From Mustelus asterias (Eukaryota), in the NCBI RefSeq assembly GCF_964213995.1, contig NW_027590119.1, positions 186,001 through 250,000 on the forward strand: DNA of 64,000 bases, written 5' to 3'. Position numbers and translations under genes: made by a program. The notes below the pieces were generated by a model. That model was not told the origin of the DNA. It saw nothing but the letters and a program-made list of their open reading frames with translations, and did not search any database. This document shows, piece after piece, positions 4,182 to 64,000 of the stretch. Position 1 is the stretch's first letter. Every line of letters begins with the position of its first letter.

Positions 4182-4856
4182 TCACTCGTGAACTTGTTGG
4201 TGTCTCAGCAGCTGGGATGAAACTCTGAAACCCTTCCCACACTGAGAGCAGGTGAATGGCCTCTCCCCAGTGTGAACTCGCTGGTGTGTCTGCAGGCTGG
4301 ATAACTGAATGAATCCCTTCCCACACTGAGAGCAGGTGAACGGCCTCTCCCCAGTGTGAACTCGCTGGTGTCTCTGCAGGTCGGATAACTGAGTGAATCC
4401 CTTCCCACACTGAGAGCAGGTGAATGGTTTCTCCCCAGTGTGAACTTGCTGGTGTCTCCGCAGGTTAGATGAACAAGTGAATCCCTTCCCACACTGAGAG
4501 CAGGTGAATGGCCTCTCCCCAGTGTGAACTCGCTGGCGTGTCTGCAGGCTGGATAACTGAGTGAATCCCTTCCCATACTGAGAGCAGGTGAATGGTCTCT
4601 CCCCAGTGTGAACTCGCTGGTGTGTCTGCAGGTGGGATGACTGCGTGAATCCCTTCCCACATTGAGAGCAGGTGAATGGCCTCTCCCCACTGTGAACTCG
4701 CTCGTGTGTCTGCAAGCTGGATAAAGAAGTGAATCCCTTCTCACACTGAGAGCAGGTGAATAGTCTCTCCCCAGTGTGGCTGCGCCGATGAGCTGCCAGC
4801 AGAGATGGGGCTCTGTATCCCTTCCCACAGTCCGCACATTTCCATGGTTTCTCCAT
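4182..4856 (-). CDS. C2H2 zinc-finger protein A, 8 fingers (finger 4 defective)
   Basis: MEKPWKC start in accATGG context, 28-aa CxxC...HxxxH repeats with TGERPF linkers; finger 4 has C>Y and H>R. Confidence 0.85.
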
Positions 4857-5342
4857 GGTGCAGGTGTCCTTACCTCTCTCTTGGGTGGACAATTAGTTGA
4901 AGCTTCGTCCACACACAGAACAAGATTACAGTCTCTCCCCGCTGTGAATGGTGTGATATTTACTCAGACTGTGTAACTGGTTAAAGCTCTTTAGTCAGTG
5001 CATTGGAACACACTCACTCGAGTGTGGCAGAGTGTTGATGCTTTTTCACTCACACTGACATTTCAAATCTTTTCAAATCGACAGACTGGACAATCATTTC
5101 TCCTTCTGGATTCAAAGTCCGATGATATTGAGGTCCCAAGGAATATGATTCTGTCACGTCTAGACGTGACGTTTGAGATTTCAGCCTGTGATTCCTCTTT
5201 CAATATCCTGGAAAATAAGTTTCCAAAAGTCATCAGTGTCAGTACAGGATAGAAATTCAAAACAGACAATTTCTGTGAAACATTCTTTCCTCTCTCATTC
5301 CCCAAAAGCTGTAAATCTCCATCCCACACACTCTCTCCCCAT

Positions 5343-5530
5343 TCTCAGCAGGTTTGGCAGCATCTGTATGGAGAGAAAAGAACTGATGTTTCAGAGCTTT
5401 GACAAAGGGTCTCTAGACAAGAAACATCAGCTCTTTTCTCTCCTTACAGATGCTGCCAGACCTGCTGAGATTTTCCAGCATTTTCTCTCTTGGTTTCAGA
5501 TTCCAGCATCCGCAGTAATTTGCTTTTATA
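5343..5530. mobile_element. Inverted pair of Penelope-like element ends (family 2) with a decayed hammerhead motif
   Basis: Arms cagcaggtttggcagcatctgta..gagagaaaagaactgatgtttc / gaaacatcagctcttttctctc..tacagatgctgccagacctgctg; related pieces at ~17605-17680, 28395-28510, 58275-58360. Confidence 0.6.
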
Positions 5531-6180
5531 AGGCTGCAGATACCACCTCCCAAGTAACATGCGTGTGCCCAAGACATCACCACTTGTTTCCCTTATTTCC
5601 TTAGCACCCATGGTGCTCTCCGCAGTAAACACAGAGAAGTATTCATTACAAATCTTATCCATCTCCTGTGGCTCCACACACAGATGGCCACACTGATTTT
5701 TAAGGGGATCTATTCTCTCTCTGGCCACCCTTTTACTCTTAATATAGTGATAGAACCTCTTGGAATTTTCTTTAATCTTACCTGCCAGATCCATATCATA
5801 CCCTCTTTTTGTCCTTCTCATTTCCCTCTTCAGTATTTTCTTACACTTTTTCTAGTCAGAGTGATTCACTTGTCCCCGATTGCCTAAACCCAATGTATGC
5901 TTCCTTCTTTTACCTGACCAGAGCCTCAATGTCCCTTGTCTGCCAGAGATCCCTAAATTTACCATTCTTTCCCTGCATCTTAACAGGAATATACTGCCCC
6001 TGGACTCTTGATATCACACTTTTAAAACCTCCCATTTGCCAGTCATTCCTTTCCCTTCAAACAAACTCACGTAATCGACATCTGCTAGATCCTGCCTAAT
6101 GCCCACAAAAGTGGCCCTGCTCCAGTTTAGGCCCTTGACCTGTGGACCTGTCCTATTTTTTTCCAGAACTATTTTGAAAC
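5530..6180 (-). mobile_element. Degraded CR1 ORF2 fragment
   Basis: KIKENSKRFYHYIKSKRVARERIDPLK...NEYFS. Confidence 0.75.
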
Positions 6181-6249
6181 TATTGGTGCTCCCAATAGTG
6201 CTCCCTGACTGACACTTCAGTCACTTGCTCCACCTCATTTCTTAACTGT

Positions 6250-6725: not shown

Positions 6726-6734
6726 TGGTTGAAG

Positions 6735-7480
6735 AGAGAGAGAAACCTGGGCCAACCTTTCCAGAGTCTGCAGCCTCCCTGGATTCACTTCCTTTGCCTT
6801 CAGTTGCTGCAAGTCCCCAATTTCCCCCAGAATGAGAAAAGAAATGGAAAGGGGGAGAAAAGAAAGTGTTTTACTCACAGATGTTGGAGAGGGGAGGAAG
6901 TTTGAGTCTGTCTGAAAATCAATCATCATTCACACAAAGCCCGCGCTCTGATTGGCTGGAAGACCAGAGTCCTCCCAGTCCTTCAACTCTTCCCATTGGT
7001 CAACACCTCAGCATGAAGATCAGAGGGTGGGTTCTCCCCCGCACATGTGCAGCTTCCCCTCTCCCCCGCACATTTGCAGTCCCAGGCCGGAGGCGATGGG
7101 GGGGGGGGGGGGCGGGGTGCGATCACCGAGCGGCTTCTCGCTCTGGCCGGAGCCGGCAGCCAGTTGTCTGGAAACCGTGGCTGGAAGAGGTGTAGGGGGA
7201 GGGGAACAATGGGTGGGGGGCGGGGCTCCTGGGTCCGCGCGCCGGGCCTGCGCAATGGAACCCGGAGACGTCACCCGGAGCAGAGAGATTTCTATTGGCT
7301 GATTCAGGCAGGGCTCTATCGTGACGTCACAATGCAGAAGTTGTCCAATGAGCTTCAGAGTGAAACTTCCTCCTCTGGGCAACATCTGGGGGGAAATCAA
7401 TGTTTCCCCCTTTCCATTTCTTTCCTCATTCTGGGGGAAATTGGGGACTTGCAGCAACTGAAGGGAATGAAGTGAATTCG
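6735..7480. promoter_or_regulatory. Bidirectional CpG promoter and first-exon modules of pair A/B
   Basis: CpG-rich; CCAAT boxes (~6950, ~6995, ~7295), CRE gtgacgtcac 7321-7330, GC box; inverted ccaacatct|gtgagt modules on both sides (plus-side donor mutated). Confidence 0.65.
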
Positions 7481-8144
7481 GTCTGTATATTCCACACATT
7501 TTTACTCCAGTAATGTAGACATTTATCTGTCTGGCAGCCTGCATGGAAATTTCCAGCTCTCTCTGTGTCCAGGACAGGAAGCAGTGAGCATGGATCTGTC
7601 AATCAGCCTCAATCAGCACCTTCAGGAGAACTGGGATGGTGAATATTAGATACAGCAGAGTGAGAATGGAGGGAGAGTGTGTGGGATGGAGATTTACAGC
7701 TTTGAGGAATGAGAGAGAAAAGAATGTTCCATAGAAATTAGAATTGTCTGTTCTGAATTTCTATCCTGTACTGACACTGATGACTTTTGTAAATTCCTTT
7801 TGCAGGATATCAGAAAATTTAAAGACGAATATGAAACCAAACTTCACATCAAAATCTAACATAGTCACTCAGTTCATTGGGACCTGAATATCATCGACCT
7901 TTGAATCTAGAATGGAAATGTTTCTCTGCTCTGTCTGCTTCAGGAGATTTTAAACATCAGTGTGACTGGAAAAGCACCGAGACACACGCACACACACTGA
8001 AACGTGCACACACCTGAGTGACTGTGGAAAGAACTTTAACCAGTTAAACAGCCTGAAAATACATTGCAGCAGAGAGACCGCACCCATGTTATGTTGTAAC
8101 TGAACTGATTGTCAAGCCTGGAGAGTCGCAAGGACACCTGCACC

Positions 8145-8818
<674 letters not shown>

Positions 8819-8834
8819 TTGCAGGGGTTGGATT

Positions 8835-8956: not shown

Positions 8957-9186
8957 TGCAGGGTGGATGAATCTCTGACTCCCTTCCCACACTGTGAGCA
9001 GGTGACTAGCCTCTCCTCAGTGTGAATTCGCTGGTGTCTCAGCAGATTCGATGAATGATTGGTTCCCTTCCCACAAGTGGAGCATATGAACGGTCTCTCC
9101 CCGGTGTGACTGCGTCGATGAGATTCCACCCCAGATGGGGCTCTGAACCCCTTCCCACAGTCTCCACATTTCCATGGTTTCTCCAT
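8957..9186 (-). pseudogene. 3'-truncated C2H2 ZNF C, ~2.5 fingers
   Basis: [10 protein letters not shown]...; third finger breaks off into the low-complexity repeat. Confidence 0.8.
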
Positions 9187-11339: not shown

Positions 11340-11930
11340 ACAAAGGTAGACACTCCTGCGCCCCCTACAAACATGGCGATCGCACCTGCACCCTGCTGCA
11401 CATTGCCCCTCACAAAGATGCCGGCCGCACATGCGCACTGATAGACATTGCCACCGACAGATTGACGGCCGTCAGCCCAGGCCCAACACGACAAGTTGCG
11501 CCTCCAATTTGGTACCAACAGGGCGCCCGGAAAGTTTGAGTTTGGGTTTGAGTTTGAACAACATGTTTACGAAGCCTCTCCACCCACCCGCCACATTCAC
11601 CTCTCTCTACGCGCCGCCCTTTACCTTGAACTGATCTCGGATTCGAGTTAAAACCGTCCGTCAGCCGCCATTAACCGCCCTGCGCATGCTTCAGACCCCT
11701 CCCCCTATTCACGCTGGTTGGAGGACCAACCGCTCCCGCTCGGTCCTCCAGCGCCGCCCCCTTTTTCTATTGGTCCGGAGCTGCCGTCAATCAGTCCTCG
11801 GGCATTGTGACGTTGAGCATGCGCAGTGCGGCTCATGTCCAGGGACAGGTCCTTGTTTGTCTGATCTTTAGGCGGGAAGGAGGCGGATAAGCGGAGGCAG
11901 CGTTAGGAGCAGTGGGTGGGAGGGGAGGCT
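11340..11930. promoter_or_regulatory. CpG-island promoter between ZNF C (-) and ZNF D (+)
   Basis: CpG-rich, tgcgcatg NRF1-like motifs, attgg box; 11460-11830 is an inverted homolog of 44860-45300. Confidence 0.6.
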
Positions 11931-13220: not shown

Positions 13221-14071
13221 TTTGTATATATTCCAGTGATAGTTGGAAGAAGTCCATGCTGACTCTCTGTACATCAATCCACTCAGTCCCATTTCCCCTC
13301 CATAACTCTGTTCCTTTTTTAATTCCTTCACACCTATCTGATTTATTTTTCAAACCATTGATCATTTCTGATTCCATCATGCACAGAAGCAGTGAGGTCA
13401 GGTCGTGACCACTCGTGAATAAAATTGTTCCTCACATCTCCTTTCTAGTAATGTGGACATTGGCTAGCAGCCTGTATGAAGATTTTCAGGTCTCTTTGTA
13501 CTGGACAGGAGCATGGGTCTGTCAATCAGCCTGAATCAGCACCTTCAGGAGAATTGGGAGGGTGTGTATTAGGTACAGCAGTATGACAATGGGGGGGGAG
13601 AGTGTGTGGGATGGAGATTCACAACTTTCGGGAATGAGAGAGCAAAGAATATTCCATGGAAACTAGAATTGTCTGTTTTGAATTTCAGTCCTATACTTAC
13701 ACTGATAACTTCTATAAACAGGATATTAGAAGGAGAGAATTTACAGACTGAAATCTCGCACCAAACGTCACAACAAGATGTTACAAAGTCACATTGTGGA
13801 TTCATCAGGACCTGAATATAATTGCTGTTTGAATGTATGAGAAGAAATGTTTGTTCTGTCTGTGGGAAAAGATTTCAAACATCAGTGTGACTGGACAAGA
13901 ATGGAGACCCCACACACCTGAGTGAGAGTGTTCCAGTGAACTGACTGTGGAAAGAGCTTCAACCAGTAACACAGCCTGAAAAACATCACCCCATTCACAG
14001 CGAGGAGAAACTGTACATGTGTTCTGTACTTGGATGTGGAATCAACTCATTATCAAAAGGACACTGGCACC

Positions 14072-14914
14072 ATGGAGAGACCATGGAAGTGTGGGGACTG
14101 TGGGAAGGGATTCCAGTGCCCATCTGCACTGGACACACATCGACGAGTTCATACTGGGGAGAGGCCGTTCACCTGCTCCGTGTGTGGGAAGGGATTCAGT
14201 ATATCAACCACCCTGCTGAGACACCAGCGAGTTCACTCTGGGGAGAGGCCGTTCACCTGCTCTGTGTGTGAGAAAGGATTCACTCAGTTATCCAGCCTGC
14301 TGACACACCAGCGAGTTCACACCGGGGAGAGGCCTTTCGCCTGCTCAGACTGTGGTAAAGGATTCAGTGATCGTTCCACCCTGTGGAGGCACCGGCGAGT
14401 TCACTCTGGAGAGAGGCCGTTCACCTGCTGTGTGTGTGGGAAGGGATTCAGCCATTCATCCACCCTGCAGACACACCGCGTCACCCACACGAATGAGAGA
14501 CTGTTTAAATGCTCAGACTGTGGGCGCAGCTTCAAAAGCTCTCAGACCCTGATGGGCCACCAGCGCATTCACACTGAGGACAGACCGTTCAGCTGCTCTT
14601 ACTGCGTGAAGAGATTTAGAACATCATCCCAACTGCTAATACACCAGCGAGTTCACACTGGGGAGACACCCTTCACCTGCTCTGTGTGCGGGAAGGGTTT
14701 CAGTCATTCATCCACCCTGTTGGCACACCAGCGAGTTCACACTGGGGAGAGGCCATTCACTTGCTCTGACTGTGGGAAGGGATTCACTCAGATCTCCAAT
14801 CTGCTCACACACCAGCGAGTTCACACTGGGGAGAGGCCGTTCAGCTGCTCTGAGTGTGGGAATAGATTTAAACGGTCGTCTCACCTGCTAAGACACCAGC
14901 GAATTCACAAGTGA
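14072..14914 (+). CDS. C2H2 zinc-finger protein D, 10 fingers
   Basis: Intact ORF MERPWKC...HQRIHK*, followed by the family 3'UTR. Confidence 0.9.
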
Positions 14915-16749
14915 TGACAGGGGTTGGATTCTGCTGTTCTTGCTGCTGTTAATCACATCCAGGACTGAACCATGTTCATTCTGACAGTTGGTGAAGTGGG
15001 AGGGTTGGAGGGTTTCTTTCTGCTGGACTGACCAACCTCACGGCTTTGCTGCAAGTGGGTCGATGCTGTTTGAATTTGAGAGTGCACATTTTACTGAGAT
15101 GATCCACAAACACGAGGTTGATCTAAAATAAACACATTTGTCTCTGTTCCATTGAGTCTACAGCACAGGGCCAGGCCAGTCGGCTCAATTGGTCTGTGTC
15201 AGTATTTATGCTCCACATGAGCCTCCACCCACCCCTCTTCATCTCCCCCCATCAGCATATCCTTCTATTCCTCTCTCCCTCATGTACGTATCTAGCTTCC
15301 CCTTCAATGTATTCATGCTGTTCACCTCAACCACTCACTGGTCACGAGTTCCACATTCGCGTCATCTTCCTCATCTCTGGAACCATTCTGGTAAATCTCC
15401 TCTCGACTCTCTCAAGGACCCTCACATCCTTCCTAAAGTGTGGTGACCAGAACTGGGCTCAGTATTCTGTTGTGGCCTCACCAGAGCTTTAGAAACTATC
15501 AGAATAACTTCCCTGCTTTTGTTCTCAATTCCCCGATTTCTGAAACCCAAGATCCAAAATGCTCCAAACAAGAATATCAGACCTTTTTGCTTAACATAAA
15601 AAGCATTTTAACAACATTCTTAAAATGGCGAAATAAGATTTTGTCCAATGAAGGAACGAGTTGTTGGCACAGAAAGAAGCCATTTTGAACTTGCTCTCTC
15701 CAAAAGAGAATCCAGAATGTTTGATTCTGGGAAGTGGAGTTAAAAATGAAGCTGCAGCTACAACAGAGCAAGAAGAAGACATTTCAATGTGGAATTAACT
15801 GGAATTTTCTCTCTGGATTTAAACAATGGAGAAACTACAAATATGGAAGAAAATAAATTTCAAAAGGTGAACTCTGAACAGACTGTTTTCAGAATTGGAA
15901 ATCCACAACTGAACAGCAATGAGGACTGTCCTCTTGCAGAAGAAACTATAATTAGTAAAAATTACTATAATTATTGTAAGAAGAAAACCGTCAGAAAAGA
16001 CTGCAAGCAGTAATTTCCATCTTCAGTGGACTGAGATTCCTGGACATGGAACCCAGCAGTGTGCTGTTACCAAGCTGGACTTGTGACTGTGAAGTGGACA
16101 ATGGGGGGATTATTATGTCTGTTGCAGGTTATAAGATAGATCAACATAGGAAAACAGTGGATTTAGGAACAGGAGGAGGCCATTTGGCCCTTCGAGCCTG
16201 CTCCACCATTCAATAAGATCATGGCTGTTGTTAAGATATACAGTATGTTTTACATTGTAATATTCTAATTGGGATATTATAGTGATACATTTTCATGTCT
16301 CCCAGGGAATATGTTGTGAAGATCTAGTTTAATAATTCATGTGTTTTAGAAATATTAATTTCAGATTTTTTTTTAAAATGAAACAACTGGAAAACCTGGA
16401 TTGAGAATCTGATAAAAACACCCTGAGGGAATTTGCAGTCACAAGGTGTGGCCCATGTTGGTTTGAGAAGTCAAAGCTAGAAGGGTAAGAACAAGTGTAA
16501 CACGGCAGCTGGGCTCTTTTAGCTGGAGACATTGGGTCTGACAATTTTTTTCCTGTCTTTGTTAGAGAGGGGAATTCTTCACGCAGACCTCAAGAAAAAA
16601 GGTTTGGTTCTGAAACTCAAAGTTAATTAATTTAAACATCTTTTGGACATCCCTACTGGTCTGTTACCATGGGGATAAGTGATTCAGGGTGGTCTTGGTT
16701 GGAATTCTGGGTGTTTTTCACAGAAAGCAGGCAGTCTGCAGTTAGCTTG

Positions 16750-17262
16750 GGAGCTGTGGGACCAGGAGCTGTGAACCAGCTGTGGGAGCGGGAGCTGTTA
16801 ACCAGCTGTGGGACCAGGAGCTGTGAACCAGCTGTGGGAGCGGGAGCTGTGAGCCAGCTGTGGGAGCGGGAGATGTGAACCAGCTGTGGGACCGGGAGCT
16901 GTGAACCAGCTGTGGGAGCGGGAGCTGTGAACCAGCTGTGGGAGCGGGAGCTGTGAACCAGCTGTGGGAGCGGGAGCTGTGAACCAGCTGTGGGAGCGGG
17001 AGCTGTGAACCAGCTGTGGGAGCGGGAGCTGTGAACCAGCTGTGGGAGCGGGAGCTGTGAACCAGCTGTGGGAGCGGGAGCTGTGAACCAGCTGTGGGAG
17101 CGGGAGCTGTGAACCAGCTGTGGGACCGGGAGCTGTGAACCAGCTGTGGGACCGGGAGCTGCGAACCAGCTGTGGGACCGGGAGCTGCGAACCAGCTGTG
17201 GGACCGGGAGCTGCGAACCAGCTGTGGGACCAGGAGCTGTGAACCAGCTGTGGGACCGGGAG
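16750..17262. repeat. 26-bp minisatellite, ~20 copies
   Basis: Unit gagctgtgaaccagctgtgggagcgg; period 26 read from 16925 to 16951. Confidence 0.95.
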
Positions 17263-18600: not shown

Positions 18601-18611
18601 TTACCACGTTC

Positions 18612-18940: not shown

Positions 18941-19190
18941 TGACCGCCTTATGGTGGAGGAGGAAACTGGTTACAATCTTTACTTGGTATAGATTTATTC
19001 ACAGAGTGAAACATTACAGGTATATAACTCCTAATACCATTCCATGCTCTGTCAGTAAGTGTCTATATGTGCTCATGTAAACATCTCATCAATGTCCACT
19101 GCTTGTATATATTTAACCCCAAATTATACAATTAACACCCACAGTCAGAGTATTTAAAAGGTCTCTAATCGGTGTGACTGCCATAATGTC

Positions 19191-49700: not shown

Positions 49701-51600
49701 TCTGTTTGGAACACCCCAAATACCCATCCAATTTCCTTTTTAATTGTTTATTGTCTCCACTTCCTCCACCCTCATAGACAGCGAGTTTCAGGTCATTACC
49801 ATTCGCTGCATCAGAATATTCTTCCTCACATCTCCCCCCTCAATTCCCCCCCCACCCCACTGCCCCCCCCAGCCCCCCACTCCCCCTCCCTTGCATCTCT
49901 AACCCAAAACAAGAAATCTGTGTCCCCCCTCGTCCTTGTCCCATCAGCTAATGGGAACAGCTTTTCTTTGTCCACCTTATCTAAACCTGTCAGAATCTTG
50001 TCCACCTCTATCAAATCTCCCCTCAACCTCCTTTGCTCCAAGGAAAACAACCCCAGCCTGACATTGACAATAAAGAACAAACTAACAGAATATGTTAATA
50101 CCTGAAATCAAATGGGAATGTTTAATTTCTGTTTTAAAGATATTGTGAATGTATTGTCCTGGACAATAAAGGAATTGGAATAACTCACCTTGGGTGTGGT
50201 TGAATGGAATATATCAATCTGATATCCACCAACAGTCCAGTGAAAGTCTGGAATGTGTAGCTGGAAGTCCCTTCCTAACAGCACTGTGGATGTACGTGCA
50301 CCTCAGGCATTGCAGCAGTTCATGAAGGCACCCTTGGGGTTGGGGTTGACCATGGCCAAGGCAGCTACATACAGCCACATATTCTGTTATAATTGAAGGA
50401 CTGCAGATTGAATGTGAGGCATTGTGGGACTGGACTATCTTGACCACATTCCTGTGACTGCCCGGAAACTCATGTGTCTATTTTAAAGCACAAAGAACAA
50501 TACAGCACAGGAACAGGCCCTTCGGCCCTCCAAGCCTGCACCGATCATGTGTTCCTAACGAGACCATCCGTTTGTATCCCTCTATTCCCAGTCTGTTCAT
50601 GTGGTTATCTAGATAAGTCTTAAATGATCCTAGCGTGTCAGCCTCAACCACCTTGCTTGGTAGTGCATTCCAGGCCCCCACCACCCTCTGTGTAAAATAC
50701 GTCCCCCGCATATCTGTATTGAACCTTGTCCCCCTTATCTTGAACTTGTGACCCCTTGTGTTTGTTCTTTCTGACCTGGGAAAAAGCTTCCAACTGTTCA
50801 CCCTATCTATGCCCTTCATAATTTTATAAACTTCTATTAGGTCGCCCCTCAACCTCTGTTTTTCCAGGGAGAACAACCCTAGTTTACTCAATCTCTCCTC
50901 ATAGCGAATACCCTCCATACCAGGCAACATCCTGGTAAACCTTTTCTGCACTCTCTCCAAAGCCTCCACGTCCTTCTGGTAGTGTGGTGACCAGAACTGG
51001 ACGCAGTATTCCAAATGTGGCCGAACCAACGTTCTATATAACTGCAACATCATATGCCAACTTTTATACTCTATGCCCCTTCCAATAAAAGCAAGCATGC
51101 CATATGCCTTCTTCACCACCCTTTCCACCTGTGTTGCCACCTTTAAGGTTCTGTGGACTTGCACATCCAGATCCTTCTGCGTGTCTATACTCCTGATGGT
51201 TCTGCCATTTATTGTATAGCTCCCCCCCCTGCATTAGATCTACCAAAATGCATCACTTCGCATTTATCTGGATTAAATTCCATCTGCCATTTCTCCGCCC
51301 AATTTTCCAGCCTATCTATATCCTGCTGTATTCTCTGACAATGTTCATCACTATCCGCAACTCCAGCAATCTTTGTGTCATCCGCAAACTTACTAGTCAG
51401 ACCAGCTACATCTTCTTCCAAATCATTTATATATATCACAAACAGCAGAGGTCCCAGTACAGAGCCCTGCGGAACACCACTAGTCACAGACCTCCAATCA
51501 GAAAAAGACCCCTCCGCTGCTACCCTCTGTCTTCTATGGCCAAGTTAGAAGTTTAACAACACCAGGTTAAAGTCCAACAGGTTTATTTGGGAGCAAAAAG

Positions 51601-51645
51601 CCACACAAGCTTTCGGAGCTCTTAGCCCCTTCTTCAGGTGAGTGG
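51601..51645 (-). ncRNA. Minimal type I hammerhead ribozyme motif
   Basis: Exact reverse complement of 52667-52711. Confidence 0.75.
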
Positions 51646-52666
51646 GAATTCTGTTCACAAACAGAGCTTATAAAGACACAGACTCAATTTACTTGAATAA
51701 TGGTTGGAATGCGAATACTTACAACTAATCAAGTCTTTAAGAAACGAAACAATGTGAGTGGAGAGAGCATCAAGACAGGCTAAAAAGATGTGTATTGTCT
51801 CCAGACAAGACAGCCAGTGAAACTCTGCAGGTCCACGCAACTGTGGGAGTTACAAATAGTGTGACATGAACCCAATATCCCGGTTGAGGCCGTCCTCGTG
51901 TGTGCGGAACTTGGCTATCAGTTTCTGCTCAGCGACTCTGCGCTGTTGTGTGTCGCGAAGGCCGCCTTGGAGAACGCTTACCCGAATATCAGAGGCCGAA
52001 TGCCCGTGACCGCTGAAGTGCTCCCCAACAGGAAGAGAACAGTCTTGCCTGGTGATTGTCGAGCGGTGTTCATTCATCCGTTGTCGCAGCATCTGCATAG
52101 TTTCCCCAATGTACCATGCCTCGGGACATCCTTTCTTGCAGCGTATCAGGTAGACAACGTCTACAACCTGATGCAAGAAAGGATGTCCCGAGGCATGGTA
52201 CATTGGGGAAACTATGCAGACGCTGCGACAACGGATGAATGAACACCGCTCGACAGTCACCAGGCAAGACTGTTCTCTTCCTGTTGGGGAGCACTTCAGC
52301 GGTCACGGGCATTCGGCCTCTGATATTCGGGTAAGCGTTCTCCAAGGCGGCCTTCGCGACACACGACAGCGCAGAGTCGCTGAGCAGAAACTGATAGCCA
52401 AGTTCCGCACACACGCGGACGGCCTCAACCGGGATATTGGGTTCATGTCACACTATTTGTAACTCCCACAGTTGCGTGGACCTGCAGAGTTTCACTGGCT
52501 GTCTTGTCTGGAGACAATACACATCTTTTTAGCCTGTCTTGATGCTCTCTCCACTCACATTGTTTCGTTTCTTAAAGACTTGATTAGTTGTAAGTATTCG
52601 CATTCCAACCATTATTCATGTAAATTGAGTCTGTGTCTTTATATGCTCTGTTTGTGAACAGAATTC

Positions 52667-52711
52667 CCACTCACCTGAAGAAGGGGCTAAGAGCTCCGAA
52701 AGCTTGTGTGG
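52667..52711 (+). ncRNA. Minimal type I hammerhead ribozyme motif
   Basis: CCACUCAC-CUGAAGA-A-GGGGC(UAAGA)GCUCC-GAAA-GC-UU-GUGUGG: intact core, stems I and II pair, palindromic AAGCUU stem III. Confidence 0.75.
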
Positions 52712-55359
52712 CTTTTGCTCCCAAATAAACCTGTTGGACTTTAACCTGGTGTTGTTAAACTTCTTACTGTGTTTACCCCAGTCCAACGCCGGCATCTCCA
52801 CATCATGACTTCTATGGCCAAACCAGTTCTGTACCCATCTAGCTAGCTCACCTTTGATCCTGTGAGATTTAACCTTTTGCACCAGCCTGCCATGAGGGAC
52901 CTTGTCAAATGCTTTACTAAAATCAATGTAGACGACATCCACGGCCCTTCCCTCGTCAGTCATTTTTGTCACCTCCTCAAAAAACTCAACCAAATTTGTG
53001 AGGCATGACCTCCCTCGCACAAAACCATGTTGTCTATCGCTAATGAGATTATTCAGTTCTAAATGTGTACAGATCCTATCTCTAAGAATCTTCGCCAACA
53101 ATTTCCCTACCACGGACGTCAAGCTCACTGGCCTATAATTACCCGGGTTATCCTTGCTACCCTTCTTAAATAACGGGACCACATTTGCTATTCTCCAATC
53201 CTCTGGGACCTCACCTGTGTCCAATGAAGAAACAAAGATTTTTGTGAGAGGCCCAGCAATTTCACCTCTTGTCTCTCTCAGTAACTGGAAGTCCCTTCCT
53301 AACAGCACTGTGGGTGTACGTACACCTCAAACATTGCAGCAGTTCAAGAAGGCACCCTTGGGGTTCACCATGGCCAAGGCAGCTATATACAGCAACATAT
53401 TCTGTTATAATTGAATGACTGCAGATTGAATGTGAGGCATTGTGGGACTGGACTATCTTGACCACATTCCTGTGACTGCCCGGAAACTCATGTGTCTATT
53501 TTAGTTTATAATTGAGGATTTCTGGGAATAAGTTAAATGCGGAAATATTAAGCATAGCCAGGAGGAATTTGGAATAACTGAGAATTTTATCCCCAGATAA
53601 AGAACAAAGATTTTGCCGGTGTTTGGGTGTAACGTGTTTGGGATTTTAAATCAACAAAGATGTTATAGAACATAGAACAGTACAGCACAGAACAGACCCA
53701 ATAATGGAATATATCAATCTGATATCCACCTACAGTCTAGTGAAAGTCTGGAATATGTAGCTGGAAGTCCCTTCCTCACAGCATTGTGGGTGTACGTATA
53801 CCTCAGGTATTGCAGCAGTTCAAGAAGGCACCCTTGGGGTTGGGGTTGACCATGGCCAAGGCAGCTACATACAGCCACATATTCTGTTATAATTGAAGGA
53901 CTGCAGATTGAATGTGAGGCATTGTGGGACTGGACTATCTTGACCATATTCCTGTGACTGCCCAAAAACTCATGTGTCTATTTTAGATTAAAATTGAGGA
54001 TTTCTGGGAATAAATTAAATGCGGAAATATTAACCATAGCCTGGAGGAATTTGGAATAACTGAGAATTTTATCCCCAGATAAAGAACAAAGATTTTGTCG
54101 GTGTTTGGGTGTAACGTGTTTGGGATTTTAAATCAACAAAGATGTTGCCTCTAAAATCAGTCCTTGTAAGTTGGCTTAAAAAAGGTTAAGTTATAATAAA
54201 GGATTTTGCATCTTATTTTAATCAAGGAGTTGTGAGCTTGTAGTGCTCTGTCGCTTTAAGGAGCTATAGCTGTGAGAGAGAATGCTGAGGATTCATTGTT
54301 TGAAATTTACGATCTGTGAGAATGTGTGTGTTTTGTTTGTTTTATGTGGATGTTTGTAGATGTGTTTTATCATTGTTTTGGACTACATTTGTTAAGGTTT
54401 ATCTTTCTGGTGGATTAACCTGATCTTCAATCTTTAATTAAAGGCATTTTTGGAAGTTTAAAAACAGGATCACAAGAGCGCTTAAGTAATTAATTTTGGT
54501 TATTGTTGTTGTAAAGCACATGTTAAGTTTCTCTGTTTGTGTGTGGATGATATTTGTGGGTTGAACGCTTCAAGCTTTGAGGTTTTCTGTCTGTGATTTA
54601 AATCAAACAGATTTTTAAAAAAGGAAGTGTGATCAATGAAACTTTTTTTGTTCAGAAGTTATGAACCTGGAGCCATATTTACTGGCCAGAGACAGGATTC
54701 CAGGATATTTTACAAAACATGTGGGAATTTTAATCCGGATACAATTCACCCATGTGAGAATGAGAGTTTTAATTTGTAATGGTTATTTAAAATTTGACAC
54801 ATGTGAAATGATTCTGACCAATCCTGTGTTGGATTGATCTTGGGTTAAACTTCCTGTCAGGTCCAAAAATTTATTCCTGACGCAAGTAACACAAAGAAAA
54901 GGAAAATTCTGGAATTGGATACTAAAGAAAAGAGTTTAAAAAGAGAGAGTATTAAATAGAAATGTTCCCAGACCATGTGGTGATTAGATTAAAACAAAGG
55001 AAGAGTGCTGACGTCCATTTGAGAACTTTTAATCCACCCCATTTCTATCTAAGGGAGTCTATGTACAAAGAAAGCCCAAGAAAGACCCCCCCAAGGGGGG
55101 GTCTGGAAAGCATCATGATGGGGGCATCTGTCCATGAGATGATCACAAAGCCCCATAATGCCCAGATACTAATTTTATTGAACCTATAATGTATGTAATC
55201 TATCACCATTCTGATTGGATTGTGTCCAGCCGGGATGGGCTGAGTAACTGGATAAGAATTGATGATATTCTGTGTTGGGTGGAGTTGCACATGGTCAGCC
55301 CCTGTGGCTTCTCCCCGCTGGCATAACTCAATAAACTGTTTGTCGATTGAATCAGGCAC

Positions 55360-56589
55360 AACACACTGGGTACATTACCACTTCATCCTTGGGAGTGGCC
55401 TGATAGGCTGTGGTCCAGACTAAATGTGGCCTCTGGGGGGCCTTTCATGAATCACATGTGTTTGGTCGTTGTAAATGTGCATTCAAAATGGTTGGAAGCA
55501 CAGATCAAGAGTAATATTCCAGCTCCTGTGACAATAGAGAAGCTCTGTCAAATTTTCACAAGCCCTGGGTTACCAGATTGGCTTGTTTCAGATAACGACA
55601 CTCTGTTTACAAGTGAGGTGTTTCAGGAATTCCTGTGTACTGTGAGGTGTTTCAGGAATTCCTGCGTACTGCACCGTTTCATCTGGCTACAAATGGTCTC
55701 ACAGAAAGAGCTGTTCAAACTCTGAAGGAGGGATTGAAAAGAATGGCAGGCGATACTTTAAGAACAAAGCTCTCAAGATTTTTGTTCCAGTTTCGCATCA
55801 CACCACAATCCACAACCGGACTCTCTCCTGTGGAATTTTTAGGTAGAAGGTTGAAGTCTCATCTGGACCTGCTTCACCCAGATCTCAGAGCAAAAGTGAG
55901 CAGGAGACAAGAGAAGCAGAAGGAGGGACACGACTACCGCGCCAAAGAGAGGCAGTTCAAACCGGGTGATCAGGTTTACATCAGAAACTTTGGGAGTAAT
56001 CAAATTTTAAACCAAAGTGGTCCAGTATCTTGGGTGGTGAGACTGTAAAACGGAAGAGTTGTTCGCAGACACCAAGACCATATTCGCTTGCGGTGTGACC
56101 CCGAGTCAGGAACAGTTTCAGAGTCAGCAACCATTACTGAGACCGTGGCAGAGGGTCATGCTGCTGTGGAAGTTCACCAGGAAATGGTTCCAGCTTTGCC
56201 AGTTGACTCTGCTGTGGGAGTGGAAGAGGAATGTTCATGTACAGATTCTCAAACTACCTCTTCACCTCCCATTCCAGAAACACCATTACAAGATTTACCA
56301 GTGGTATTGTACAGGTCGCAATGCAACCGCAAAGCTCCTGACAGACTTCCGTATTGTTAAAGACATTACTTTGTTGTATTTCTGTCCTGATGGGGGATTG
56401 AAATTTAAGGGGAGGAGAAGTGTTACAGAGTGTTCTTCACAACCTCTCTCCCTTCTGAGCACGTGCGGGCTTTGGGTGGGGTTTCAGTCTGCAAGTCCAG
56501 GCTGGTTCCAATGCTCCTGTTTCCTTTTGTTTGCCAATGATTTTTAAACTTTGTTATTTATTTATATAAAGAACATTCTGCTTTTAACA
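55360..56589 (+). mobile_element. Gypsy LTR retrotransposon 3' end (integrase, PPT, LTR)
   Basis: TAPFHLATNGLTERAVQTLK...FRITPQSTTGLSP; purine tract 56407-56420; TGTTA...TAACA at 56421-56589. Confidence 0.82.
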
Positions 56590-58620: not shown

Positions 58621-59295
58621 TCACTTGTGAACTTGCTGGTGTGCCCGCAGGCTGGATGACTGAGTGAATCCCTTCCCACACACACAGCAAGTGAATGGTC
58701 TCTCCCCGGTGTGAACTCGCTGGTGTATCCGCAGGTGGGATGATGTTCTAAATCTCTTTGAGCAGTGAGAGCAGCTGAACGGTCTCTCCCCAGTGTGAGT
58801 GCGCTGGTGAATCATCAGTTCCCGAGAGCTTTTGAAATCACGCCCACAGTCAGAGCATTTAAACGGTCTCTCATTGGTGTGAGTGAGATTGTGGTTCTGC
58901 AGGCTGGATGACTGAGTGAATCCCTTCCCACACACAGAGCAGGTGAACGGTCTCTCCCCAGTGTGAACTCGCTGGTGTATCCGCAGGTGGGATGATGCTC
59001 TAAATTTCTTTGCGCAGTGAGAGCAGCTGAACGGTCTCTCCCCAGTGTGAATGCGCTGGTGGATAATCAGTTCCCGAGAGCTTTTGAAACCACTCCCACA
59101 GTCAGAGCATTTAAAGGGTCTCTCCTGGCTGTGAGTGACTTTGTGTTTTGACAGGTTAGATAACTGCGTAAATCCTTTCCCACACACAGAGCAGATGAAT
59201 GGCCTCTCCCCGGTGTGACTGCGTCGATGAATTTCCAGTTTACAGGGGGCTCTGTATCTCTTCCCACAGTCCCCACATTTCCACGGTTTCTCCAT
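58621..59295 (-). CDS. C2H2 zinc-finger protein J, 8 fingers
   Basis: Intact MEKPWKC...HQQVHK*, with full family 3'UTR (58375-58620). Confidence 0.9.
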
Positions 59296-60098
59296 GGTGC
59301 GGGTGTCCTTGTGACTCTCCAGGTTAAACAATCAGTTAAATCTCACACAGAACACGGGTACAGTCTCTCCCCGCTGTGAATGCTGCGATGTACTTTCAGG
59401 CTGTGTAACTGGTTAAAGCTCTTTCCACACTCAGTGCAGTGGAACACTCTCACTCGGGTGTATCTGTGCCTTGGTGCTTTTCCAGTCACATTGATATTAA
59501 AGGCCTGTTGACGCAGACAGAACAGGGAAACATTTCTCCTTCCAGATTCAAAGGCCGATAATATTCAGGTCCGATGAATTGAGTGAGGGTGTCAGATGCT
59601 GATGTGACGTTTGTTTCAATCCTCTGTCTGTCAATCCTCACCTTCTCATATCCTGTAAACGAGTTTGGAAAATTCATCAATGTCAGCACAGGATAGAAAT
59701 TCAGAACAGACTATTCTAGTTTCTATGGAACATTCTTTCCTCTCTCATTCCCGAAAAGCTGTAAATCTCCATTCCACACACTCTCCCTCCATTCTCACTC
59801 TGCTGTATCTAATATTCACCCTCCCAATTCTCCTGAAGGTGCTGATTGAGGCTGATTGACAGATCCATGCTCACTGCTTCCTCTCCTGGACACAGGGAGC
59901 TGAAAATCTCCCTGCAGGCTGCCAGACAGATATTTGTCTAAATTACTGGGCTAACAATGTGTGGAACATACCGACTGGATTCACTTCCTTTCCCTTCAGT
60001 TGCTGCAAGTTCCCAATTTCCCCCAGAATGAGAAAAGAAATGGAAAGGGGAGGAAAAGAAAGTGTTTCACTCACAGATGTTGGCCTCTTTTAAGGCTT

Positions 60099-60170
60099 TG
60101 CATTGGCCAGGAATACGAACCCAGGCCTCCCGCGGGGCAGGTGAGAATTCTACCACTGAACCACCAATAC
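60099..60170 (-). pseudogene. tRNA-Gly(GCC) pseudogene
   Basis: GTATTGGTGGTTCAGTGGTAGAATTCTCACCTGCCCCGCGGGAGGCCTGGGTTCGTATTCCTGGCCAATGCA; matches vertebrate tRNA-Gly-GCC, with an anticodon-stem mismatch, A37>C and a T-loop insertion. Confidence 0.85.
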
Positions 60171-60458
60171 TCAAGGGAGAGAAAACTGCTCAGTTCTTTC
60201 AACCAGTGCTTTCACATGCAAAGAAATGTTGATGATTTGCAGCAGCAAATTCAGTGCTGCTACACACACACAACACTGTTGGAGACAGGAGGAAGATTGA
60301 ATCTGCCCACTCCCCCATGCCCCGGGGCTGCGCATGTCCAAGGGAGAGAGGAAGCTGCGCATGTGCGGTGGAGTGCCCACCCCTGAGATGTTGACCAATG
60401 GGAACTCTGGAGGACCGGAAGGACTCTGGTCCTCCAGCCAATCAGAGCTCCCCCGTAT

Positions 60459-60800: not shown

Positions 60801-60946
60801 TGTCTGAATGCGGAAGTGGACAATGAGCTTGTTCAGCTGCCCATTCCTGCCCAGCAAAGCTGCTGCTGCTTCTCTCTCTCTGAATGAAGATTGAGCTTCA
60901 GACACAGACTCAACCTTCCTCCTGTCTCTAATATCTGTGAGAGTGT

Positions 60947-61019
60947 GGGTCAGTGGCGCAATGGATAACGCGTCTGACTACGGATCAGAAGATTCCAGGT
61001 TCAACTCCTGGCTGGCTCG
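60947..61019 (+). tRNA. tRNA-Arg-ACG: tRNA-Arg(ACG)
   Basis: 73 nt GGGTCAGTGGCGCAATGGATAACGCGTCTGACTACGGATCAGAAGATTCCAGGTTCAACTCCTGGCTGGCTCG; two tolerated changes from the vertebrate sequence as I recall it; TTTT at 61051-61054. Confidence 0.93.
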
Positions 61020-62084
61020 ATGTCAATTTGAAAAATAGTTTGTGAGCTCCTTTTGACCTAAAAGAGGCCAACATCTGTGAGTAAAACACTTTCTTTGCTC
61101 CGCTTTTGCGTTTCTTTTGCATTCTGGGGGAAATTGGGGACTTGTTGAATTTTTAACTTCCAGGTCACCACTCGCTGCCTAAATAAAAATCCTCCTCACA
61201 TTCTTCATGTATCTGTAACCAGGTAACACAGTGCATTACACACATCATCAGTCCGCTCATTGATGTCCAAATGTAACACTTTAACGTGGCTGTCAGCTTG
61301 AAGATTAATCATGGATCATTTGCACTTCCACAACCCTCTGAGGCAGCGGGTTCCAGGTAATGACCTTTCTGCACCAAAATAAAATTCTTCCCCACATCCT
61401 TCCCTTTCTCCCAATCCAGTTATCCGGTCCCGCATATGGCACAGATTTTAATTTCTAGCGTGTAGGCCGGTCGTTACACGTAGATTTTCAGATCTCTGTG
61501 TCCAATATAGAAAGTGGTCAGCATGGATCCGTTAATCAGCCTGAATCAGCACCTTCAATAGACTTGGGAGGTTGTATGCTCAGGAGAGCACAGTGAGAAT
61601 TGAGGGAGAGTGTGTGGGATGGAGATTGACAGATTTTGGAGAATGAGAGAGGAAAGAATGTTCCATAGAAACTAGAATTGTCTGTTCTGAATTTCTATCC
61701 TGTACTGACAATGATGTCTGTTGTAAATTCCTTTCATAGATATCAGGAGGTGAGGATTTACAGACAGAAATTTCAAACTAAACATCACATCAAGATTTGA
61801 CAGAGCCATTCGATTTATTGGGACCTGAATATCATCGACCTTTGAATCTAGAAAAGCAATGTTTGTCTGATCTGTTTGCTTAAGGAGATTTTAAACATCA
61901 GTGTGACTGGAACACACCCGAGTGAGAGTGTTCCAGTCCACTGATAGTGGAAAGAGCTTTAACCAGTTACACAGGCTGAAACAACATTGCACCGTTTACA
62001 GTGAAGAGAGACCGTACACGTGTTCTGTGTGGACAAGGATTCAACTGATCATCAAACCTGGAGAGCCACAAGGACACCCGCATC

Positions 62085-63611
62085 ATGGAGAAACTGTGGA
62101 AATGTGACAATTGTGGACAAGGATTCATGTTGCCCTGTGATTTGGAAATTCATCAACGCAGTCACACTCGGGAGAGACCCTTCACTTGCTCAGTGTGTGG
62201 GAAGGGATACATTAAGTTCTCCCACCTGCTGAGTCACAATCTCACTCACACCAATGAGAGACCCTTTAAATGCTCTGACTGTGGGAGCGGATTCAAAAGC
62301 TCTGGAGAACTGGTGTCCCACCAGCGCATTCACAGTGAGGAGAGACTGTTCAGCTGCTCTCACTGCACAATGAAATTTAAATGGTCATCCACACTGCGGA
62401 GACATCAGCGAGTTCACACCGGGGAGAGACCGTTCAGCTGCTCCATGTGTGGGAAGGGATTCTCTCGGTCCTCCGAACTGCGGGCACACCAACGAATTCA
62501 CACTGGGGAGAGACCATTCACCTGCAATGTGTGTGGGAAGGGATTCTTTCGGTCATCCGCCCTGCTGACGCACAAAGTCACTCACACCAATGAGAGACCC
62601 TTTAAATGCTCTGACTGTGAGAGTTGCTTCAAAAGTTCTCGGGATCTGATGTCCCACCAGCGCATTCACACTGAGGACAGACCGTTCAGCTGCTCTCACT
62701 GCACAAAGAGATTTAGATCATCATCAAACCTGCGGAACCACCAGCGAGTTCACTCCGGGGAGAGACCATTCACTTGCTCTGACTGTGGGAAGGGATTCAC
62801 GCAGTTATCCGCCCTGCTGACACACCAGCGAGTTCACACCGGAGAGAGGCCATTCACCTGCTCTGTGTGTGGGAAGGGATTCACTAATTTACCCAACCTG
62901 CTGAGTCACAAAGTCACTCACACCAGTGAGAGGCCCTTTAAATGCTCGGACTGTGGGAGTGAATTCAAAATTTCTGGGGAACTGGTGTCCCACCAGCGCA
63001 TTCACACTGAGGACAGACCGTTCAGCTGCTCTCTCTGCACAAAGAGGTTTAAGAGGTCATCCACACTGCAGAGACACCAGCGAGTTCACACCAGGGAGAG
63101 ACCGTTCATCTGCTCTGTGTGTGGGAAGGGATTCAGTCAGTCATTCACCCTGCTGACACACCAGCGTCTTCACACCGAGGAGAGACCATTTACCTGCACC
63201 GAGTGTGGGAAGGGATTCACTCAGTCATCCACCCTGCTGACTCACCAGCAAGTTCACAGCGGGGAGAGACCATTCACCTGCACCGAGTGTGGGGACAGAT
63301 TCACTCGGTTATCCACCCTGCAGAGACACAAAGTCACTCACTCCCAGGAAAGACCCTTTAAATGCTCTGACTGTGGGAGTGGCTTCAAAATTGCTCAGCA
63401 TCTGATGGACCACCAGCGCATTCACACTGGGGAGAGACCGTTCAGCTGCTCTCACTGCACAAAGAGGTTTGGAAGGGCATGCACACTGAGGAGACACCAG
63501 CGGGTTCACACTGGGAGAGACCATTCACCTGCTCTGTGTGTGCGGAAGGATTCACTCGATACCCCAGCTGCTGATGCACAATGTCCCTCACACCCAGGAG
63601 AGACCCTTTAA
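62085..63611 (+). CDS. C2H2 zinc-finger protein K, 17 fingers then a frameshift; decayed fingers to ~63745
   Basis: 508-aa ORF starting MEKLWKC; 1-nt loss in the linker near 63513; family 3'UTR from 63745. Confidence 0.88.
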   Translation: MEKLWKCDNCGQGFMLPCDLEIHQRSHTRERPFTCSVCGKGYIKFSHLLSHNLTHTNERPFKCSDCGSGFKSSGELVSHQRIHSEERLFSCSHCTMKFKWSSTLRRHQRVHTGERPFSCSMCGKGFSRSSELRAHQRIHTGERPFTCNVCGKGFFRSSALLTHKVTHTNERPFKCSDCESCFKSSRDLMSHQRIHTEDRPFSCSHCTKRFRSSSNLRNHQRVHSGERPFTCSDCGKGFTQLSALLTHQRVHTGERPFTCSVCGKGFTNLPNLLSHKVTHTSERPFKCSDCGSEFKISGELVSHQRIHTEDRPFSCSLCTKRFKRSSTLQRHQRVHTRERPFICSVCGKGFSQSFTLLTHQRLHTEERPFTCTECGKGFTQSSTLLTHQQVHSGERPFTCTECGDRFTRLSTLQRHKVTHSQERPFKCSDCGSGFKIAQHLMDHQRIHTGERPFSCSHCTKRFGRACTLRRHQRVHTGRDHSPALCVRKDSLDTPAADAQCPSHPGETL

Positions 63612-64000
63612 CTGCTCTGACTGTGGGAATGGTTTCAAAAGCTCTCAGGAACTGATGATCCACCAGTCCATTCACAGCTGCTGTGTGTGGGAAGAAATTC
63701 ACCAGTTCATCCCTCCTGCTGAGACACCAACGAGTTCACAAGTGATGACAGGAGTTGGATTCTGCTGTTATTGCTGCTGTTAATCACATCCAGGACTGAA
63801 CCATGTTCATTCTGACAGTTGGTGAAATGGAGGGTCGGAGGGTTTCTTTCTGCTGGACTGGCCGGTCTCACGACTTTGCTTCCAGTGGGTTGATGCTCTT
63901 TGAGCCTGGGAGAGCACATTTCCACTGAAATGACCCACACAAACTGACGAAGAACATTTATTTTATCCTGGAGAGTAAATAATGTTTTTCCTAACGCTGC

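What the first reader, a model, noticed from the sequence alone, without database searches (positions are those of the whole stretch)
4182..63745. ZNF cluster built from head-to-head gene pairs on a reusable bidirectional promoter cassette
Seen: 11 finger arrays form five divergent pairs (A/B, C/D, E/F, H/I, J/K) plus orphan G. Each pair flanks a CpG-rich block assembled from shared parts: a CCAAT pair (6945, 22825, 33720, 60393), a CCAAT-CRE-GC block (7020, 23030, 45520) and a second block type (11460, 44860). These parts recur in different combinations and orientations. I see no KRAB- or SCAN-like exon. Inference: the unit of expansion is a two-gene cassette whose half-promoters are shuffled. 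This could be a finger-only counterpart of tetrapod KRAB-ZNF clusters, possibly aimed at the surrounding retroelements; that function is conjecture.
Basis: partly seen in the sequence, partly recalled or inferred. Interest (0 to 1): 0.72.

Follow-up and report, generated by a model that had tools for sequence, protein, structure and literature searches.

The report
Shark zinc-finger genes sharing back-to-back promoters
In this stretch of shark-type DNA, eleven copies of a gene for DNA-binding zinc-finger proteins that lack the usual silencing domain mostly sit back to back around shared on-switches, and the cluster seems to grow by copying events that break at those switches and give old switch halves new partners.

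Summary
The layout is real: 11 C2H2 arrays in an elasmobranch genome, five divergent neighbours plus orphan G (P≈0.006 if orientation were random and independent), and all named promoter blocks at the stated positions. The blocks are TATA-less NRF1/NF-Y/CRE/GC-box promoters, with a shared non-coding first exon pointing outward on both sides in A/B, E/F and J/K. The proteins are finger-only: no KRAB or SCAN by Pfam or local profiles, and no upstream in-frame extension in 10 of 10 gene models.

The inferred unit of expansion needs correcting. No head-to-head pair was seen copied whole. The two traceable duplications are a tail-to-tail pair (D-E to F-G) and one gene plus promoter (A to I, leaving B behind); each has a mapped end at a promoter. 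J/K is a mirror pair. That explains the chimeric promoters and orphan G. Only E/F and J/K keep two long ORFs; B, C, H and I are broken. The J/K core is not CpG-rich.

The parts
4185..4856 (-). Gene A ORF, 224 aa, 7 canonical fingers plus 1 degenerate; last-exon acceptor at 5208; exon 2 not found
6729..6930 (-). Shared non-coding exon 1 and intron start of A; donor GT at 6878
6931..7018 (-). CCAAT pair (two NF-Y-type boxes 44 bp apart) upstream of A exon 1
7020..7100 (.). GC-rich block homologous to the NRF1-pair blocks of G and J/K (motifs degenerate here)
7107..7345 (+). CRE/GC/CCAAT block facing B
7356..7477 (+). Exon-1 homologue of B; donor reads GG instead of GT at 7388
7557..7638 (+). Small non-coding exon 2 of B (also in D 13490-13561, G 32813-32740, J 59899-59820, K 61492-61570; remnant in C 9752-9702)
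8145..8817 (+). Gene B: 7 fingers in two frames; ORF from the ATG is only 72 aa; probable pseudogene
9022..9186 (-). Gene C: two-finger remnant, truncated against the 3' end of B
11463..11923 (+). Second promoter type (NRF1-like, CCAAT/GC repeats, NRF1-like) between C and D
14072..14911 (+). Gene D ORF, 280 aa, 10 fingers
13601..22880 (+). Duplication unit D + tail-to-tail spacer + E + CCAAT pair; colinear copy at 24885-33778
19194..20264 (-). Gene E ORF, 357 aa, 11 canonical fingers, frameshifted tail
22560..22880 (-). E exon 1 (donor GT 22694) and CCAAT pair (22811-22880)
23020..23218 (-). CRE/GC/CCAAT block, inverted relative to its position in A/B
23480..23693 (+). F exon 1 with an 18-bp tandem expansion; donor GT 23667
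25344..26099 (+). Gene F ORF, 252 aa, 9 fingers
31522..32148 (-). Gene G ORF, 209 aa, 7 fingers followed by decayed fingers; no divergent partner
33508..33858 (-). G exon 1 (donor GT 33651), CCAAT pair and NRF1 pair
42354..43577 (-). Gene H: 14 fingers in an open frame, but ACA at the family start-codon position
44803..45298 (-). Second promoter type facing H
45351..45508 (.). 28-bp tandem repeat, 5.6 copies, holding five perfect CRE palindromes
45545..45858 (-). Copy of the A/B CRE and GC blocks, joined directly to I's last intron (CCAAT pair, exon 1 and exon 2 of I absent)
46289..48391 (+). Gene I: 25 fingers, stop at codon 5; recent inverted copy of A
45472..55677 (-). Inverted segmental copy of 53-7418 (A, its 3' flank, promoter up to B exon 1), 82-95% in blocks
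58624..59295 (-). Gene J ORF, 224 aa, 8 fingers
59975..60083 (-). J exon-1 donor block (GT 60074); a second, degenerate exon-1 copy at 60305-60277
60099..60170 (-). tRNA-Gly(GCC) gene, degraded (35 bits), between J's two exon-1 copies
60321..60448 (+). NRF1 pair and CCAAT pair facing K, followed by a ~340-bp interspersed repeat (60459-60801)
60883..61144 (+). K exon-1 copy (donor GT 60937) and second donor block (GT 61077)
60947..61019 (+). tRNA-Arg(ACG) gene (58 bits) between K's two donors
62085..63608 (+). Gene K ORF, 508 aa, 17 fingers, frameshifted tail to about 63748

Best explanation
This is a birth-and-death cluster of an elasmobranch family of finger-only C2H2 genes. Each gene is: TATA-less promoter, short non-coding exon 1, optional small exon 2, then one last exon holding a leader of dead fingers, a Kozak ATG (MEKPWK) and the array. 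Two such genes sit back to back across less than 1 kb of NRF1, NF-Y, CRE and GC-box sites, which most likely fire both ways and co-express the pair (inferred). The cluster grows by tandem and inverted segmental duplications with an end at or in these promoters, plausibly because the exon-1 and promoter blocks are the shared homology there and a copy needs a promoter half to survive (inferred). Alternating orientation is thereby inherited, new head-to-head junctions are chimeric, and orphans and dead partners accumulate. The proteins most likely bind DNA through diversifying helix residues and act by occupying sites or by recruiting partners through the fingers themselves, since no separate effector domain is encoded (inferred).
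For: Shown: gene anatomy and splice sites; last-exon acceptor AG kept in 10 of 10 aligned genes (C not aligned). 38 non-3n indels in the leaders of 9 genes versus 3 frameshifts in 10.1 kb of arrays. No in-frame upstream ATG extension in 10 of 10 models. First-finger dN/dS 0.45 overall, 0.35 at scaffold, 1.0 at contact positions; internal-finger entropy 2.7-3.1 bits at helix -1/3/6 versus 0.23 at the core F and L. NRF1-like 12-mer: 9 of 9 matches lie in promoter blocks, 0.74 expected. CCAAT box columns invariant 18 of 18 versus spacer 22 of 35, p=0.002. Outward-facing exon-1 copies 510-973 bp apart in A/B, E/F, J/K. Duplications: D-E to F-G ends at the CCAAT pair; A to I ends at B exon 1; J/K mirror. 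Named relatives are elasmobranch and lack KRAB/SCAN Pfam entries. NRF-1 and NF-Y sites are over-represented in human bidirectional promoters (PMC3082894).
Against: No transcript or chromatin data: start sites, splicing and divergent firing are all inferred from sequence. Only two duplications plus one mirror pair could be traced, in one 64-kb window; the other end of the A-to-I copy lies outside it. The gene tree is a star apart from A+I and rejects none of eight small groupings tested, including the cassette split (p=0.19); D+F, E+G and J+K are not recovered as clades. Non-coding intron and leader are about as conserved as the first finger (0.85-0.89 versus 0.87), so much similarity is plain descent. 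The J/K core is not CpG-rich and is split by a repeat. No exon-1 donor was identified for D or H. B's donor is mutated.
Confidence: 0.62

Rival explanations
1. The head-to-head two-gene cassette is the true unit of expansion genome-wide; this window shows only later rearrangement and decay.
For: Five divergent neighbours; CCAAT-side versus far-side split not rejected (p=0.19); two horn shark gene models hint at alternating orientation: an antisense copy of the family's intron/acceptor between same-strand arrays (P0184, E=3e-10) and a CCAAT pair facing away from the modelled gene (P0127).
Against: No two pairs here are congruent copies: A~I 93% but B~H 72%; B's 5' region matches the H side only at 76% over the family-wide stretch. 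The clearest two-gene copy is tail-to-tail. Left and right genes share the same exon 1, so there are no fixed left and right gene types.
Confidence: 0.2
2. The promoters are ordinary one-way promoters of single genes. Divergent layout is a by-product of inverted duplication and has no regulatory meaning; most copies drift.
For: The CCAAT pair keeps a fixed direction to one gene in 4 of 4 cases, and G keeps a full core without a partner. 4 of 11 genes are broken and only 2 of 5 pairs keep two long ORFs. H/I looks like a chance junction.
Against: Cores are compact, with exon-1 copies on both sides within 1 kb in three pairs; motif content is the bidirectional set; CCAAT boxes and reading frames are under constraint.
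Confidence: 0.15
3. The genes have an unrecognised N-terminal effector exon (a FiNZ-like short domain) that would be joined by splicing.
For: FiNZ is only 28 aa and has no similarity to known domains (PMC10547256), so Pfam could miss such a thing; exon 2 is conserved and holds an ATG in B, D, J and K.
Against: In-frame stops lie between the last acceptor and the ATG in all 10 modelled genes; leaders are full of frameshifts; exon 2 is absent from A, E, F, H and I; horn shark models start at MEKPWK or a 13-aa MEGKST leader.
Confidence: 0.05

Closest known systems
Tetrapod KRAB-ZNF clusters (PMC10547256 introduction; human 8q24.3 cluster, PMC2865497)
   Same: Clustered paralogues, TGE(K/R)P-linked arrays in one last exon, variable helix residues, TATA-less CpG-island-type promoters with shared site modules, copies among retroelements.
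   Different: No KRAB or SCAN exon; upstream exons are non-coding; leader is made of dead fingers; near-strict head-to-head layout with chimeric promoter halves. The 8q24.3 paper has no occurrence of 'head-to-head' or 'bidirectional'.
Cyprinid FiNZ-ZNF family (PMC10547256)
   Same: Lineage-specific, KRAB-free expansion in a fish, on chromosome regions also rich in RNA genes.
   Different: FiNZ is an acidic 28-aa domain on its own coding exon; here no coding exon precedes the array. TE repression was shown for FiNZ-ZNFs and is untested here.
Vertebrate bidirectional CpG-island promoters (definition and motif set as cited in PMC3082894)
   Same: Divergent starts within 1 kb; NRF-1 and NF-Y sites; one ETS-like site per core in some copies.
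   Different: Both partners are paralogues with the same exon 1, and promoter halves recur in a gene family. No ACTACAnnTCCC (ZNF143) match in the window.
Annotated elasmobranch 'zinc finger protein 850/271/721-like' models (Heterodontus francisci, Mustelus asterias)
   Same: Same start (79% to the G start segment), same signature first finger, same leader remnants and same sequence after the last finger.
   Different: The database models fuse several genes and intergenic DNA into 900-1600-aa chimeras; the gene unit and promoter layout are not described there.

Membership tests
KRAB-ZNF | KRAB domain on an upstream coding exon | tested here: not met
   0 KRAB hits in 297 of 297 upstream sense ORFs of 40 aa or more; local profile best 4.9 bits on 672 targets versus 62.7 minimum for 24 of 24 held-out KRAB domains
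KRAB-ZNF | Tandem C2H2 array with canonical linkers in a single last exon | tested here: met
   84-nt spacing, 119 fingers in 11 arrays
KRAB-ZNF | TRIM28 recruitment and binding to transposable elements | not testable with these tools
   needs interaction and ChIP data
SCAN-ZNF | SCAN domain upstream of the array | tested here: not met
   no Pfam hit; local profile best 2.2 bits versus 126.5 minimum for 7 of 7 held-out
BTB-ZNF / ZAD-ZNF | BTB or zf-AD domain upstream | tested here: not met
   no such Pfam hit at E<=0.05 in 297 ORFs
FiNZ-ZNF | 28-aa FiNZ domain on an upstream coding exon, in frame with the array | tested here: not met
   no FiNZ profile was available, but no upstream frame can join the array: in-frame stops before the ATG in 10 of 10 models
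Bidirectional promoter | Two genes head to head with starts under 1 kb apart | tested here: inconclusive
   exon-1 donor positions 510-973 bp apart in A/B, E/F, J/K; starts are inferred; not identified for C/D; I's half is deleted
Bidirectional promoter | CpG island | tested here: inconclusive
   obs/exp 0.60-0.90 and GC 55-65% in 6 of 7 cores measured; J/K 0.39
Bidirectional promoter | NRF1 / NF-Y motif content | tested here: met
   consensus motifs recalled
Bidirectional promoter | Measured divergent transcription | not testable with these tools
   no CAGE, RNA-seq or ATAC data
Intact head-to-head cassette as duplication unit | Both partners equally close to the partners of another pair | tested here: not met
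   A~I 93%, B~H 72%; copy ends at B exon 1; deeper history unresolved

The most novel reading that the evidence does not exclude
Sharks and rays run a transposon-tracking ZNF system of a thousand or more genes with no separate effector domain. The conserved first finger (Pro at helix +1, acidic residue at +5) is the cofactor-binding module that KRAB or FiNZ supply elsewhere, and back-to-back promoters serve as recombination points that give each new copy a working promoter half at birth, sometimes carrying tRNA genes along.
Probability: 0.17. Interest if true: 0.78.

Novelty: new variant of a known kind. Interest (0 to 1): 0.45.

Why it matters
[quoted passage not shown] How such a family arises, gets expressed and acts without an effector domain is open. 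This window supplies a concrete gene model, a family marker (the first finger) and a testable rule for growth (duplications ending at shared promoters). It also shows that current database models of these genes are chimeras. If the cluster is only drifting duplicates, the value shrinks to better annotation.

Tried and rejected
Stop-codon readthrough or selenocysteine at the shared TGA 13 codons before the ATG: rejected; the leader has 38 non-3n indels and a horn shark model has Arg there (P0143), which fits CpG decay. Coding role of the leader: a J leader ORF found no long relatives (4 candidates, 0 scored; weak evidence). Exact look-up found 0 of 7 ORFs, so the species was not identified. Atlas search of a stored homologue gave only generic C2H2 clusters. 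PDB search with the first-finger profile gave generic fingers; Zfp568 has Pro at +1 in fingers 1 and 3, so that proline is not unique. Matching horn shark model segments to window promoters: unbiased test gave 5 hits in 288 comparisons, most of them looking like noise, and none for the CRE block; in the targeted test 5 of 10 hand-picked segments had their best 400-bp tile on or overlapping a promoter block, at modest scores; counted as hints only. Tree tests of pair models were uninformative except that strand is not a clade (p=6e-39). The bare CCAAT-pair pattern is not enriched. ZNF143 motif: 0 matches. Target prediction against repeats was not attempted: no recognition-code tool or repeat library. 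No fold or complex job was run.


Full report
Verdict. The described layout is real and the proteins are finger-only. The proposed unit of expansion, an intact head-to-head cassette, is not what this window shows; duplications that end at the promoters fit better. Function against retroelements is untested. Interest 0.45; a new variant of a known kind.

Source. The DNA is elasmobranch. A profile of the gene starts (alignment A1) matched Heterodontus francisci models at up to 79% and Mustelus asterias at 70%; gene F's highest-identity listed hit was Hemitrygon akajei at 70%. None of 7 ORFs was in the protein collection letter for letter, so the species is not identified. The spacers hold reverse-transcriptase fragments (PF00078 in 5 of 11 non-finger ORFs scanned).

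Observation. Six-frame scanning gives 11 arrays with 119 canonical fingers, in the order - + - + - + - - + - +. Five divergent neighbours is the maximum for 11 genes and occurs in 12 of 2048 random orders, though the genes are not independent. Six of seven cores measured have CpG obs/exp 0.60-0.90 against a window mean of 0.39; the J/K core has 0.39.

Gene anatomy. All copies share one plan. Exon 1 ends in AACATCT|GTGAG; copies occur in A, E, F, G, J, K (twice) and B, where the donor reads GG. A small exon 2 is present in B, D, G, J and K, is a remnant in C, and was not found in A, E, F, H or I. The last exon has an AG acceptor in 10 of 10 aligned genes, then about 260-430 nt of leader, then a Kozak-type ATG starting MEKPWK. 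The leader is made of dead fingers: one still scores as zf-C2H2 in J. It carries 38 non-3n indels across 9 genes, against 3 frameshifts in 10.1 kb of arrays. Horn shark models include forms in which one more finger is still coding behind a 13-residue MEGKST start, so this subfamily probably shortened itself by a stop and a new ATG in a linker (inference).

No effector domain. Pfam found no KRAB, SCAN, BTB or zf-AD in 297 of 297 upstream sense-strand ORFs of 40 aa or more; the only hit above a curated cut-off was ALKBH8_N at 12829-13431, which I take for a retroelement fragment (recalled). Local KRAB and SCAN profiles, which recovered 24 of 24 and 7 of 7 held-out domains at 62.7 and 126.5 bits or more, scored at most 4.9 and 2.2 bits on 672 window targets. 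No upstream ATG extends the main ORF in frame in 10 of 10 modelled transcripts (C not modelled). The 16 elasmobranch proteins listed carry neither PF01352 nor PF02023.

State of the genes. Long ORFs: A 224 aa, D 280, E 357, F 252, G 209, J 224, K 508. Broken: B (72 aa, frameshift), C (two fingers), H (no start codon at the family position, though 14 fingers stay in frame) and I (stop at codon 5). So only E/F and J/K have two long ORFs. First fingers show dN/dS 0.45, with 0.35 at scaffold and 1.0 at contact positions; internal fingers vary most at helix -1, 3 and 6 (these are paralogue comparisons, not a test for positive selection).

Promoters. An NRF1-like 12-mer matches 9 times, all in promoter blocks, against 0.74 expected. 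The two CCAAT boxes are 43-44 bp apart, and their columns are invariant in 18 of 18 versus 22 of 35 in the spacer (p=0.002). NRF-1 and NF-Y are among five motifs over-represented in human bidirectional promoters (PMC3082894, passages). Exon-1 copies face outward 510 bp apart in A/B, 973 bp in E/F and 863 bp in J/K. The CCAAT pair always reads in the sense of the gene it abuts (A, E, G, K), and the second block type faces D and H alike, so most 'orientation changes' are just gene strand. Real recombination of parts is visible too: the CRE block is flipped in E/F relative to A/B, and H has a CRE block stacked upstream of a second-type block. Motif names are recalled; divergent firing is inferred.

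How the cluster grew. Three events are traceable. First, 13601-22880 matches 24885-33778 colinearly at an offset of 11-12 kb, through D, the tail-to-tail spacer (70-86%), E, E's first intron and the CCAAT pair, where it stops. The copied unit is tail-to-tail; the E/F promoter is the new junction and G is left as the orphan. Second, 53-7418 matches 55677-45472 inverted at 82-95%: gene A, at least 4 kb of 3' flank and the promoter up to B's exon 1, but not B. A and I are 93% alike upstream of finger 1; B and H are 72%, the family background. I then lost its own promoter half. Third, J and K mirror each other around the shared core (75-87%). Against over-reading: the tree of 10 genes is a star except A+I (100/100), and AU tests rejected only the strand grouping, 1 of 9 tested (two of them the same split); the cassette-side split had p=0.19 and B+H p=0.07. 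An ancient head-to-head cassette is therefore not excluded, but nothing here shows one being copied whole.

(i) A signature first finger: Pro at helix +1 in 11 of 11 first fingers versus 2 of 108 others, and an acidic residue at +5 in 10 of 11 versus 1 of 108. The same pair of residues occurs 23 times among 279 fingers of 15 named shark proteins, 18 of them at array starts, and in 0 of 633 fingers of 25 other vertebrate proteins; the shark set was found with this profile, so it is selected. An electric ray protein shows it too (P0214). It may be a protein-binding finger, but plain descent explains it as well: the first finger is no more conserved in DNA than the intron, and Zfp568 has Pro at +1. 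(ii) tRNA-Gly(GCC), degraded, and tRNA-Arg(ACG) lie at matching places in J and K, each between two exon-1 copies and in gene sense. Reciprocal loss from an ancestral Gly-Arg pair would explain this (inference). Shark genomes are rich in clustered tRNA loci (bioRxiv 10.1101/2025.06.08.657570, passages).

Other species. Horn shark models fuse several same-strand genes. One includes an antisense copy of the family's intron and acceptor (P0184, E=3e-10), and one includes a CCAAT pair facing away from the modelled gene (P0127). Both fit alternating orientation but are only hints.

What is known. Large ZNF counts in elasmobranchs are in the supplement of PMC10547256 (rows seen in files 1 and 2; files 3-5 not searched); its main text has no occurrence of shark, chondrich or cartilaginous (parts 1-2 of 9 read). 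PMC8455134 (passages) reports KRAB enriched among families lost in cartilaginous fishes. PMC11603059, PMC10208646, PMC2865497 and bioRxiv 10.1101/2025.03.13.642935 were seen as passages and do not describe this family there. Ten full-text searches listed no paper on the architecture of shark ZNF clusters or on head-to-head ZNF duplication; the library lacks most subscription papers, and bioRxiv supplements were closed, including the tandem-cluster tables of the Squalomix preprint. That head-to-head pairs also occur among human ZNF genes is recalled and unchecked.

Assessment. Each ingredient is known: birth-and-death ZNF clusters, KRAB-free fish expansions, NRF1/NF-Y bidirectional promoters. 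The combination, in a lineage with thousands of such genes and no described effector, was not found in print. The evidence is one window and sequence only, which caps the score.

Noticed in passing
window 60099-60170 (-) and 60947-61019 (+): tRNA-Gly(GCC), degraded, and tRNA-Arg(ACG) at matching positions in the 5' regions of J and K, each between two exon-1 donor copies.
   Followed up: partly
first finger of all 11 genes: Family-signature finger with Pro at helix +1 and an acidic residue at +5, shared with horn shark, smooth-hound, zebra shark and electric ray proteins.
   Followed up: partly
about 300 nt upstream of each ATG, e.g. 59300-59650: Leader made of dead zinc fingers with a shared stop 13 codons before the ATG and several short upstream ORFs; an intact relic finger remains at 59438-59376.
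   Followed up: yes
window 4185-4856 versus 46289-48391: A has 8 finger units and its recent copy I has 25, although flanks differ by only 5-8%: very fast change of array length.
   Followed up: no
window 51543-52768: 1.2-kb near-perfect palindrome (97%) with a GIY-YIG-like ORF (E=5e-4, below cut-off); its ~280-bp arms recur at 10914-11188 and 44181-44456. Penelope-like (label recalled).
   Followed up: partly
window 45351-45508: 28-bp tandem repeat giving five perfect CRE palindromes next to a CRE block whose own CRE sites have decayed.
   Followed up: no
3' ends of D, F, J, K (e.g. 63749-63990): 3' UTRs are 81-92% alike, higher than the first two fingers of the same genes (70-79%); conversion or a conserved RNA element are possible.
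   Followed up: no
window 18610-18940, 27036-27374, 57889-58211, 60459-60801: ~340-bp interspersed repeat, 80-92% alike (SINE-like, label recalled); one copy splits the J/K promoter.
   Followed up: no
window 55351-56547 and 30535-30957: ORF fragments that look like LTR-retrotransposon integrase and gag by eye; no Pfam support.
   Followed up: partly
window 35401-35866 and 8855-8959: G-rich low-complexity tracts; one sits at the B/C junction where both 3' ends are cut short.
   Followed up: no
proteins P0121-P0212 (Heterodontus francisci, Mustelus asterias): Public gene models of 900-1600 aa are chimeras of several family genes plus translated intergenic and repeat DNA.
   Followed up: partly
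window 16752-17263: 26-bp minisatellite, 19.7 copies at 96%, present as a short unexpanded copy at 29007-29051 in the duplicated spacer.
   Followed up: no
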